From assembly GCF_041886205.1 (NCBI RefSeq), contig NZ_CP169029.1: a stretch of DNA of 64,000 nucleotides. The stretch is one strand, 5' to 3'. Position numbers and translations under genes: made by a program. Positions 55,150 to 55,311 of this stretch are shown piece by piece; position 1 is the first letter of the stretch; each line of letters starts with the position of its first letter. Source of the stretch: Escherichia coli. GTDB lineage: Bacteria > Pseudomonadota > Gammaproteobacteria > Enterobacterales > Enterobacteriaceae. Under the pieces are notes generated by a model, which saw nothing but the letters and a program-made list of their open reading frames with translations, ran no database searches and had not been told where the DNA came from.

Positions 55150-55195
55150 TAAGGTCAAAAAAAACCCCCGGACCTTTCGGTGCGGGGGTCTTAGT
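55150..55195 (-). terminator. ilvGMEDA attenuator terminator (minus strand hairpin cccccgcaccgaaaggtccggggg + U8)
   Basis: GC-rich hairpin followed by an 8-T run between ilvL and ilvG. Confidence 0.85.
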
Positions 55196-55212
55196 TCGTT
55201 AAGGCTTGATCT

Positions 55213-55311
55213 CTAAGCCTTTCCTCGTCCAAGTGCAGCCCCGCACGGTGGGATAATAATCACCACCACGCTAATCACGACCAGGCTAATCACTCGTAGA
55301 AGGGCTGTCAT
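55213..55311 (-). CDS. ilvL: ilv leader peptide IlvL (32 aa, Val/Ile/Leu-rich)
   Basis: Minus-strand ORF MTALLRVISLVVISVVVIIIPPCGAALGRGKA. Confidence 0.9.
   Translation of the reverse strand: MTALLRVISLVVISVVVIIIPPCGAALGRGKA

What the first reader, a model, noticed from the sequence alone, without database searches (positions are those of the whole stretch)
55150..55311. Intact ilv leader peptide and attenuator
The 32-aa leader MTALLRVISLVVISVVVIIIPPCGAALGRGKA is rich in Leu/Val/Ile codons and is followed by a strong hairpin plus U8 attenuator before ilvG. The rho leader peptide RhoL (39301-39402) is a second small leader ORF in the window. Both are easily missed because they fall below the 60-aa ORF cut-off.
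Basis: partly seen in the sequence, partly recalled or inferred. Interest (0 to 1): 0.2.

Follow-up and report, generated by a model that had tools for sequence, protein, structure and literature searches.

The report
Textbook ilvL leader and attenuator

Summary
A 32-codon ORF (55311..55213, minus strand) encodes MTALLRVISLVVISVVVIIIPPCGAALGRGKA, with 15 of 32 residues Ile/Leu/Val. A GC-rich hairpin (55189..55164) and a U8 run (55164..55157) follow it, upstream of an intact ilvG.

The transcribed leader, attenuator and ilvX are base-for-base identical to E. coli K-12. RefSeq annotates them as ilvL and ilvX. The peptide passes Pfam PF08046 and NCBIfam NF007744, and the RNA passes Rfam RF02744.

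Three mutually exclusive structures exist: protector, antiterminator (GUGCGGGG 55246..55239 with CCCCGCAC 55187..55180) and terminator. They cannot be seen by equilibrium folding of the full leader. They appear when the nascent RNA is folded with a ribosome footprint masked.

In silico, stalls at codons 1 to 18-19 allow the antiterminator, and stalls from codon 21 onward do not. In 17 of 17 gammaproteobacterial lineages the terminator's 5' arm has a significant partner 1-5 codons past the ILV run, and the two strands covary.

Published ribosome profiling and genome editing support the mechanism. RhoL at 39402..39301 is also confirmed.

Verdict: already known, low interest.

The parts
55213..55311 (-). 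ilvL leader peptide CDS (32 codons plus UAG). The regulatory Ile/Leu/Val codons are at positions 4,5,7,8,10-13,15-20 and 27.
   Evidence: ORF list. RefSeq annotation in 100%-identical genomes. Pfam PF08046 and NCBIfam NF007744 above cut-off.
55312..55347 (-). 5' untranslated part of the leader RNA. The 5' end near 55347 is inferred, not measured.
   Evidence: A TATGGT hexamer at 55361..55356 lies 8-10 nt upstream (read). The start position is my inference from that hexamer and from a remembered leader length of about 185 nt. The Rfam RF02744 match extends further, to 55382.
55243..55271 (-). Protector inner hairpin. GCGUGGUGGUG (Ser14-Val17 codons) pairs with CCCACCGUGC. It sequesters GUGC of the antiterminator's 5' strand.
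   Evidence: Local fold -15.5 kcal/mol. 99.2% of cells paired across 10 Enterobacterales but with no covariation, because the helix is invariant.
55301..55305 (-). Protector outer stem, 5' strand. GCCCU (Ala3-Leu4 codons) pairs with GGGGC at 55242..55238.
   Evidence: Read from the MFE structures. It forms as soon as 108 nt have been transcribed.
55239..55246 (-). Antiterminator 5' strand GUGCGGGG, in the Pro22-Cys23-Gly24-Ala25 codons.
   Evidence: Perfect 8-bp complement of 55187..55180. Duplex -17.7 kcal/mol, P=0.013 against dinucleotide shuffles.
55190..55233 (-). Inner part of the antiterminator domain: helix CUUGG (55233..55229) with CUAAG (55194..55190), and the middle hairpin 55221..55215 with 55207..55201. 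The hairpin's 5' strand contains the ilvL stop codon.
   Evidence: Fold of 55246..55180 is -27.4 kcal/mol. The middle hairpin shows compensatory changes in Enterobacterales.
55164..55189 (-). Intrinsic terminator hairpin. The 5' arm is ACCCCCGCACC, the loop GAAA, the 3' arm GGUCCGGGGGU. The 5' arm at 55187..55180 is shared with the antiterminator.
   Evidence: 95% of cells paired in 10 Enterobacterales, with one compensatory C-G to A-U change.
55157..55164 (-). U8 tract of the terminator.
55076..55126 (-). ilvX, a 16-codon ORF ([16 protein letters not shown]) between the attenuator and ilvG. Its stop codon ends 2 nt before the ilvG ATG.
   Evidence: RefSeq annotation. Conserved at the same position in 8 of 10 Enterobacterales sampled.
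53427..55073 (-). ilvG, the first enzyme gene under attenuator control. It is intact here at 548 aa, whereas it is a pseudogene in K-12.
   Evidence: RefSeq annotation. NCBIfam NF007433 at 95.2 bits, cut-off 85.

Best explanation
This is the ribosome-mediated transcription attenuator of the ilvLXGMEDA operon.

RNA polymerase starts about 35 nt upstream of ilvL and transcribes a leader of about 190 nt. As the leader emerges it folds into a protector. In that state the strand GUGCGGGG (55246..55239) is fully paired, half to the Ser14-Val15 codons and half to the Ala3-Leu4 codons.

If charged tRNA-Ile, tRNA-Leu and tRNA-Val are plentiful, the ribosome runs to the stop codon at 55215..55213. GUGCGGGG is then inside or re-captured behind the ribosome. 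The terminator's 5' arm finds no upstream partner, the terminator hairpin plus U8 forms, and transcription stops before ilvX and ilvG.

If any of the three amino acids is scarce, the ribosome stalls on one of the Ile/Leu/Val codons between positions 4 and about 19. That holds the protector open and leaves GUGCGGGG free. GUGCGGGG pairs with CCCCGCAC (55187..55180) before the terminator's 3' arm has been made. The terminator cannot form, and polymerase reads through into ilvXGMEDA.

Shown here: the sequence elements, their mutual exclusivity, the predicted dependence on stall position, and the conservation and covariation. Taken from the literature: termination and read-through in vivo. Inferred: the transcription start and the kinetic order of folding.
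For: Identity: 100% identical to K-12 across the transcribed leader. Annotated as ilvL in 5425 of 5426 complete E. coli genomes. PF08046, NF007744 and RF02744 are all above their curated cut-offs.

Structure: the three structures share bases pairwise. In the nascent 171-nt RNA the protector state is -46.9 and the antiterminator state -48.4 kcal/mol. The helix probability is 0.53 without a ribosome. The protector is the MFE at every tested length up to 165 nt.

Stall dependence: when only RNA 3' of a stalled ribosome is folded, the 8-bp antiterminator helix forms with P>=0.84 for A-site codons 1 to 18-19. It does not form for codons 21 and beyond. With the ribosome at codon 32 or the stop, the terminator arm is unpaired.

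Comparative: ILV-rich leader ORFs lie upstream of ilvG in Enterobacterales, Vibrio, Shewanella, Colwellia, Aeromonas, Marinobacter, Pseudoalteromonas and Rheinheimera. In 17 of 17 lineages the best partner of the terminator's 5' arm is significant (P<=0.05, median 0.007). It always lies 1-5 codons after the ILV run. The strands change together, for example GUGCGGGG:CCCCGCAC, CUCGGGG:CCCCGAG, CGAGGGUUU:AAACCCUCG and CCGGGGGC:GCCCCCGG.

Selection at the nucleotide level: among codons with an invariant amino acid, 18 of 19 in ilvL use the same codon in all 10 Enterobacterales. The figure for ilvG is 5 of 189.

Experiments: Masuda et al. 2021 (PMC8384417) report a 45-fold drop in RNA-seq density from ilvL to ilvG in the control strain. 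The drop is 9-fold when ribosomes pause within ilvL, and a chromosomal codon edit abolishes the induction. The attenuator model goes back to Lawther & Hatfield 1980 and Nargang et al. 1980, which I could cite only from reference lists.
Against: Equilibrium folding of the complete leader gives the terminator for every ribosome position. The switch is therefore visible only under a kinetic, co-transcriptional assumption that I did not simulate explicitly.

If pairing across the stalled ribosome is allowed, stalls at codons 13-16 give a cross-ribosome protector instead of the antiterminator.

Within Enterobacterales the key helices are invariant, so they offer no covariation.

A conserved protector could not be shown in distant lineages: 3 of 17 reached P<=0.05. 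That test was also poorly matched to the real E. coli protector.

The published derepression by pausing at Pro21-Pro22 lies just past the point where my footprint model still allows the antiterminator. It fits only if the mRNA entry edge is 2-4 nt tighter than I assumed, or if partial pairing is enough.
Confidence: 0.97

Rival explanations
1. Control of ilvG comes mainly from Rho-dependent termination or translational polarity at ilvX, with the hairpin plus U8 playing a minor part.
For: Adams et al. 2021 (PMC7815308) list ilvX among translationally repressed genes whose 5' regions carry Rho-associated 3' ends. ilvX is conserved and abuts ilvG.
Against: The hairpin plus U8 is a canonical strong intrinsic terminator. 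The antiterminator covaries with it in 17 lineages, including ones without ilvX. That same paper cites the classical attenuator study for this site. Rho action is better seen as an extra layer than as a replacement.
Confidence: 0.05
2. The roughly 190-nt terminated leader is chiefly a trans-acting small RNA, and the ORF is incidental.
For: The orthologous Pectobacterium transcript was reported as a novel sRNA candidate, rev_39, and became Rfam RF02744. GcvB-ilvL chimeras and GcvB repression of ilvL have been reported.
Against: The ORF is translated, as ribosome profiling shows. An ILV-rich ORF is conserved across genera even where the nucleotide sequence is not. That fits a sensor of tRNA charging, not a fixed seed sequence.
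Confidence: 0.03
3. IlvL is a functional hydrophobic micropeptide, for example membrane-inserted, and the peptide rather than the act of translating it is what matters.
For: The peptide is very hydrophobic and nearly identical across Enterobacterales.
Against: Synonymous sites are as conserved as non-synonymous ones: 18 of 19 codons are identical. That points to RNA-level selection. In distant genera the peptide sequence diverges freely and keeps only the ILV run followed by a Gly/Arg-rich, G-rich segment that supplies the antiterminator strand.
Confidence: 0.02
4. It is a chance ORF next to an ordinary terminator that ends some other transcript.
For: The palindrome also scores weakly as a plus-strand terminator-like site.
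Against: The upstream neighbour yifB is divergent, on the plus strand from 55634, so no minus-strand gene ends here. No plus-strand gene runs into the site either. The ORF is unique among 363 small ORFs in the window for ILV density and matches curated family models.
Confidence: 0.005

Closest known systems
ilvGMEDA (ilvLXGMEDA) leader-attenuator of E. coli K-12 (Lawther & Hatfield 1980; Nargang, Subrahmanyam & Umbarger 1980)
   Same: It is the same element. The sequence is identical from the promoter's -10 region through ilvL, the attenuator and ilvX, with the same 32-aa peptide and the same terminator.
   Different: Two things differ. ilvG downstream is intact here, whereas K-12 carries the frameshift pseudogene. 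There are also 11 substitutions in the promoter-upstream region, 55363-55482.
trp, his, leu, thr and ilvBN (ivbL) leader-peptide attenuators of Enterobacteria
   Same: The logic is the same: a short leader ORF with codons for the end-product amino acids, alternative protector, antiterminator and terminator pairings, and a hairpin followed by a U-run.
   Different: This one is multivalent, with three amino acids sensed through 15 codons spread over codons 4-27 rather than a tight run for one amino acid. The protector is composite, with an inner hairpin plus an outer stem reaching back to codons 3-4.
Rfam RF02744, 'Soft rot Enterobacteriaceae Rev 39 5'UTR'
   Same: Full-length match over model positions 1-300, 157 bits against a gathering score of 88, at 55382..55093. 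The family's source transcript is annotated '5' UTR: ilvG'.
   Different: The Rfam name and description do not say that the family is the ilv attenuator. Its consensus structure shows the terminator-state hairpins only. Its 3' part also covers much of ilvX.

Membership tests
Ribosome-mediated (leader-peptide) transcription attenuators | A short translated ORF in the 5' leader of an amino-acid biosynthetic operon | tested here: met
   32-codon ATG ORF at 55311..55213, upstream of ilvX and ilvG. Translation in vivo comes from published ribosome profiling.
Ribosome-mediated (leader-peptide) transcription attenuators | Enrichment of codons for the operon's end-product amino acids | tested here: met
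   15 of 32 codons are Ile/Leu/Val, P=0.002. It is the only one of 363 small ORFs in the window with at least 9 of 10. ILV runs are conserved upstream of ilvG in 8 or more genera.
Ribosome-mediated (leader-peptide) transcription attenuators | An intrinsic terminator between the leader ORF and the first structural gene | tested here: met
   Hairpin 55189..55164 at -18.7 to -21.6 kcal/mol, followed by U8. 95% paired across Enterobacterales.
Ribosome-mediated (leader-peptide) transcription attenuators | An antiterminator that shares bases with the terminator's 5' arm | tested here: met
   GUGCGGGG (55246..55239) pairs with CCCCGCAC (55187..55180). Significant and covarying in 17 of 17 lineages.
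Ribosome-mediated (leader-peptide) transcription attenuators | A protector (1:2) pairing that sequesters the antiterminator unless a ribosome stalls on the regulatory codons | tested here: inconclusive
   Present in the window and conserved in Enterobacterales. The predicted stall dependence fits. It is invariant, so there is no covariation, and it was not demonstrable in distant lineages: 3 of 17.
Ribosome-mediated (leader-peptide) transcription attenuators | Premature termination in vivo, relieved by starvation or ribosome pausing | not testable with these tools
   From the literature only. The ilvL-to-ilvG RNA drop is 45-fold, falling to 9-fold when ribosomes pause. A codon edit abolishes the induction (PMC8384417).
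IlvL (Pfam PF08046 IlvGEDA_leader; NCBIfam NF007744, equivalog) | Profile match above the curated cut-off over the full length | tested here: met
   PF08046: 61.5 bits, cut-off 25, residues 1-32 of 32. NF007744: 81.9 bits, cut-off 59.
Rfam RF02744 (ilvG 5' UTR) | Covariance-model score above the gathering threshold | tested here: met
   157.1 bits against 88, full model, E=1.8e-47.
RhoL (NCBIfam NF007433, equivalog) | Profile match above the cut-off, located upstream of rho | tested here: met
   95.2 bits, cut-off 85. The ORF 39402..39301 lies just upstream of rho and is annotated rhoL in RefSeq. Pfam has no model that matches.

The most novel reading that the evidence does not exclude
A 45-nt core of the leader (AGCGUGGUGGUGAUUAUUAUCCCACCGUGCGGGGCUGCACUUGGA, 55272..55228) is absolutely invariant from E. 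coli to Photorhabdus. The hairpins could have tolerated compensatory change there. This may mean the core serves a further sequence-specific function beyond the three-structure switch. Candidates are a polymerase pause signal, a binding site for a protein or sRNA, or a trans-acting role for the abundant terminated leader RNA.
Probability: 0.12. Interest if true: 0.35.

Novelty: already known. Interest (0 to 1): 0.07.

Why it matters
It matters little as a discovery. This is one of the classical attenuators, described in 1980, and it is annotated in essentially every E. coli genome. Checking it had three practical uses.

- It shows the first-stage reader can recover sub-60-aa regulatory ORFs correctly from raw sequence.
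- It shows that 'fold it and look for alternative hairpins' fails if done naively, because the MFE shows only the terminator. Nascent-transcript folding with a ribosome footprint is needed.
- It shows that Rfam RF02744, named 'Rev39 5'UTR', is simply the ilv attenuator. The same element was still being reported as a novel sRNA candidate in 2016.

Tried and rejected
- Equilibrium folding of the full leader with a ribosome mask at each codon. The terminator formed in all 33 cases, so this design cannot test a kinetic switch. I replaced it with nascent-RNA folding.
- The consensus terminator scanner. It missed the true terminator and reported a weak plus-strand site instead. I rejected that site as functional because no plus-strand gene runs into it.
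- A first cross-species test with the ribosome on the last ILV codon. It was badly posed, because the footprint then covers the antiterminator strand itself. I replaced it with a position-free duplex search.
- The protector test in distant lineages. It was inconclusive (3 of 17), and the query strand did not capture the real E. coli protector.
- Covariation counting within Enterobacterales. The key helices never vary, so it says nothing for or against them. Only the middle hairpin and one terminator pair show compensatory changes.
- Reading the primary papers (PMC348608, PMC348600, PMC207787). None is held, so I could not compare my helix coordinates with the published drawings.
- Promoter assignment. 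The scanner found only TTGAAA-16-AAAAAT at 55423..55396. The TATGGT at 55361..55356 has no good -35 hexamer. I could not assign the promoters named in the literature and left the transcription start as an inference.

Full report
**1. What is in the sequence**

On the minus strand, an ATG ORF runs from 55311 to 55213.

The peptide has 5 Ile, 4 Leu and 6 Val, so 15 of 32. That gives P=0.002 against the ILV content of the adjacent IlvG. It is the only one of 363 ATG-ORFs of 20-59 aa in the whole window with at least 9 ILV in any 10-residue stretch.

Downstream lies ACCCCCGCACC-GAAA-GGUCCGGGGGU (55189..55164). It has one internal C-C mismatch and energies of -18.7 kcal/mol for the core and -21.6 kcal/mol with its A-U extension. 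A run of eight U follows at 55164..55157.

The 196-nt leader folds at -70.2 kcal/mol, with z=-4.1 and 0 of 200 dinucleotide shuffles as stable.

The consensus terminator scanner did not call this hairpin, most likely because of the mismatch. It reported only a weak plus-strand reading of the same palindrome. No plus-strand gene approaches that site, so I discount it.

**2. Identity**

The 591-nt region is 100% identical to several E. coli chromosomes and is present in 5425 of 5426 complete E. coli genomes. RefSeq annotates ilvL, ilvX and ilvG there.

Compared with K-12 MG1655, the window is identical from about 55362 through ilvL, the attenuator, ilvX and the start of ilvG. All 11 differences lie further upstream.

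The peptide passes Pfam PF08046 (61.5 bits, cut-off 25) and the NCBIfam equivalog NF007744 (81.9 bits, cut-off 59).

The RNA matches Rfam RF02744 over the whole model, at 157 bits against a gathering score of 88, covering 55382..55093. That family comes from 'rev_39, 300 nt, 5' UTR: ilvG', which Kwenda et al. 2016 (PMC4710047) listed as a novel sRNA candidate in Pectobacterium. It is this same attenuator under an uninformative name.

The upstream neighbour yifB is divergent, on the plus strand from 55634. The hairpin therefore cannot be the end of another minus-strand gene.

**3. The refutation test: are there mutually exclusive hairpins?**

Plain folding is misleading here. The MFE of the full leader contains the terminator. 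Masking a ribosome footprint at each of the 33 codons still gives the terminator every time. That is expected, because a local 10-bp GC hairpin always wins at equilibrium, whereas attenuation is decided before the 3' arm exists.

Folding the nascent RNA, cut at the terminator loop, reveals the alternative. GUGCGGGG (55246..55239, in the Pro22-Ala25 codons) is a perfect complement of CCCCGCAC (55187..55180) in the terminator's 5' arm. Two inner elements extend it: the helix CUUGG:CUAAG, and a middle hairpin at 55221..55215:55207..55201. The whole domain is worth -27.4 kcal/mol.

In the protector state all eight bases of GUGCGGGG are paired. GUGC pairs with GCGU of the Ser14-Val15 codons, in the inner hairpin 55271..55243 (-15.5 kcal/mol). 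GGGG(C) pairs with GCCCU of the Ala3-Leu4 codons, in the outer stem 55305..55301:55242..55238.

The three structures share bases in a chain, at 55243-55246 and at 55180-55187.

In the 171-nt nascent RNA the two states are nearly equal in energy: -46.9 kcal/mol for the protector and -48.4 kcal/mol for the antiterminator. The helix probability without a ribosome is 0.53. The protector is the MFE at every tested length up to 165 nt, so it forms first.

**4. Stall-position logic**

I folded only the RNA 3' of a stalled ribosome, placing its edge 12 or 15 nt past the first A-site base. The antiterminator helix forms with P>=0.84 for A-site codons 1 to 18-19. It is partial at codons 19-20 and absent from codon 21 onward. 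That range includes 13-14 of the 15 Ile/Leu/Val codons, and Leu27 lies outside it.

With the ribosome at codon 32 or the stop codon, the terminator's 5' arm is unpaired, so termination follows. The stop codon sits in the 5' strand of the middle hairpin, so a terminating ribosome also melts the inner antiterminator domain.

Two caveats apply. If pairing across the ribosome is allowed, stalls at codons 13-16 give a cross-ribosome protector. And I did not simulate folding kinetics.

**5. Comparative evidence**

I anchored the search on IlvG rather than on the leader and retrieved 80 loci. ILV-rich leader ORFs precede ilvG in Enterobacterales, Vibrio, Shewanella, Colwellia and Cognaticolwellia, Aeromonas, Marinobacter, Pseudoalteromonas and Rheinheimera. 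They are absent in Xanthomonadales and the alphaproteobacteria, where another gene abuts ilvG. I found no convincing one in the Pasteurellaceae and Psychromonas loci.

In 17 of 17 leader-bearing lineages, the strongest duplex between the terminator's 5' arm and the whole upstream leader beats dinucleotide shuffles (P<=0.05, median 0.007). It always sits 1-5 codons after the ILV run. The two strands change together between genera: GUGCGGGG:CCCCGCAC, CUCGGGG:CCCCGAG, CGAGGGUUU:AAACCCUCG, CCGGGGGC:GCCCCCGG and AGCGGGGG:CCCCCGCU. This is covariation at the level of the whole architecture. It also explains the conserved Gly/Arg-rich segment after the hydrophobic run, which supplies the G-run.

Within 10 Enterobacterales the key helices never vary, so pair counting says nothing about them. 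Only the middle hairpin and one terminator pair show compensatory changes.

The invariance is itself informative. Among codons whose amino acid is invariant, 18 of 19 in ilvL use the identical codon in all ten species, and 14 of 14 do so in codons 14-28. In the first 300 codons of ilvG the figure is 5 of 189. Selection therefore acts on the RNA, not only on the peptide.

A conserved protector in distant lineages could not be shown: 3 of 17 were significant. That test was also poorly matched to the composite E. coli protector.

Within E. coli, the 201-nt leader is >=99% identical in 5413 of 5425 genomes.

**6. Experimental literature**

Masuda et al. 2021 (PMC8384417) found a 45-fold drop in RNA-seq density from ilvL to ilvG in control cells. 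The drop was 9-fold when ribosomes paused in ilvL. ilvG was induced 3.1-fold, and changing the chromosomal CCA-CCG codons to GCA-GCG abolished that induction.

That pause, at Pro21-22, lies just beyond my predicted permissive range. It fits if the mRNA entry edge is 2-4 nt tighter than I assumed, or if partial pairing is enough for the modest effect seen. The edit also alters the protector's 3' strand, so it is not a pure test of stalling.

Miyakoshi et al. 2021 (PMC9299463) report that the sRNA GcvB represses ilvL translation through its R1 region, but does not repress ilvX. Adams et al. 2021 (PMC7815308) list ilvX among 5' regions with Rho-associated 3' ends.

The founding papers are Lawther & Hatfield 1980 and Nargang et al. 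1980. Chen, Harms & Umbarger 1991 is a later mutational study of the leader. None of the three is held, and I cite them only from reference lists.

**7. RhoL**

The ORF at 39402..39301 on the minus strand encodes MRSEQISGSSLNPSCRFSSAYSPVTRQRKDMSR. RefSeq annotates it as rhoL between trxA and rho. It passes NCBIfam NF007433 at 95.2 bits against a cut-off of 85. Pfam has no matching model.

**8. Verdict**

The observation and the interpretation are both correct. The element is the classical multivalent ilv attenuator, intact and identical to the K-12 reference. Nothing about it is new.

The small additions from this check are a quantified stall-position map, a cross-genus covariation test of the antiterminator, the synonymous-site contrast with ilvG, and the identification of RF02744 as this element.

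Novelty: already known. Interest: low.

Noticed in passing
window 55363-55482 (minus-strand promoter and upstream region of ilvL): All 11 differences from K-12 in a 600-nt comparison cluster here, and 9 of them fall within 64 bp (55363-55426). The 330 nt downstream are identical. Only 7 of 5426 E. coli genomes are >=99% identical over 55355-55490. Most are 95-99%, and about 2090 are too divergent for megablast. By contrast the adjacent leader is >=99% identical in 5413 genomes. The result is a polymorphic promoter and upstream-activating region next to an invariant attenuator.
   Followed up: partly
window 55076-55126 (minus strand): ilvX is a 16-codon ORF ([16 protein letters not shown]) with a GAGGAG Shine-Dalgarno sequence. 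Its stop codon ends 2 nt before the ilvG ATG. It is conserved at exactly the same position, with a K-F/S-C core, in E. coli, E. albertii, Citrobacter, Superficieibacter, two Enterobacter, Klebsiella and Acerihabitans. It is absent in Photorhabdus. The layout suggests translational coupling to ilvG, and its function is unknown.
   Followed up: partly
window 53427-55073 (minus strand): ilvG is intact at 548 aa, unlike the frameshifted pseudogene of K-12 MG1655. The window is therefore from a non-K-12 E. coli, and acetolactate synthase II should be functional.
   Followed up: yes
L083 (NZ_OW849064.1, E. coli isolate 131), corresponding to window 55279-55293: This is a natural leader variant. A 15-nt in-frame deletion between two direct copies of GTGATTAGC (window 55293..55285 and 55278..55270) removes codons 7-11 (VISLV). 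There is also a G-to-A change at the base just 5' of GUGCGGGG (window 55247). It is annotated as a 27-aa leader peptide, and its effect on attenuation is unknown.
   Followed up: partly
window 55093-55382 (minus strand): Rfam family RF02744, 'Rev39 5'UTR', is the ilv attenuator under a name that hides that fact. Rfam has no family named for the ilvGMEDA leader, although it has ones for the trp, his, leu and thr leaders (the last point is from memory).
   Followed up: yes
window 18988-19194, 39843-39942, 58604-63824, 22825-23258 (all minus strand): Other Rfam matches in the window are GlmZ sRNA (216 bits), the TrxA 5' UTR thermometer (79 bits), a complete rRNA operon (16S, a tRNA in the spacer, 23S, 5S, then two tRNAs), StyR-44 next to the 23S gene, and a cluster of four tRNA genes at 22825-23258. 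All are expected for this part of the E. coli chromosome.
   Followed up: no
window 37957-39288 (minus strand): The mechanical ORF list gives rho as 443 aa because of an in-frame upstream ATG (MDDPAIPF...). The sequence MNLTELK... starts 24 codons in and matches the usual 419-aa Rho. The length of Rho is from memory and was not tested.
   Followed up: no
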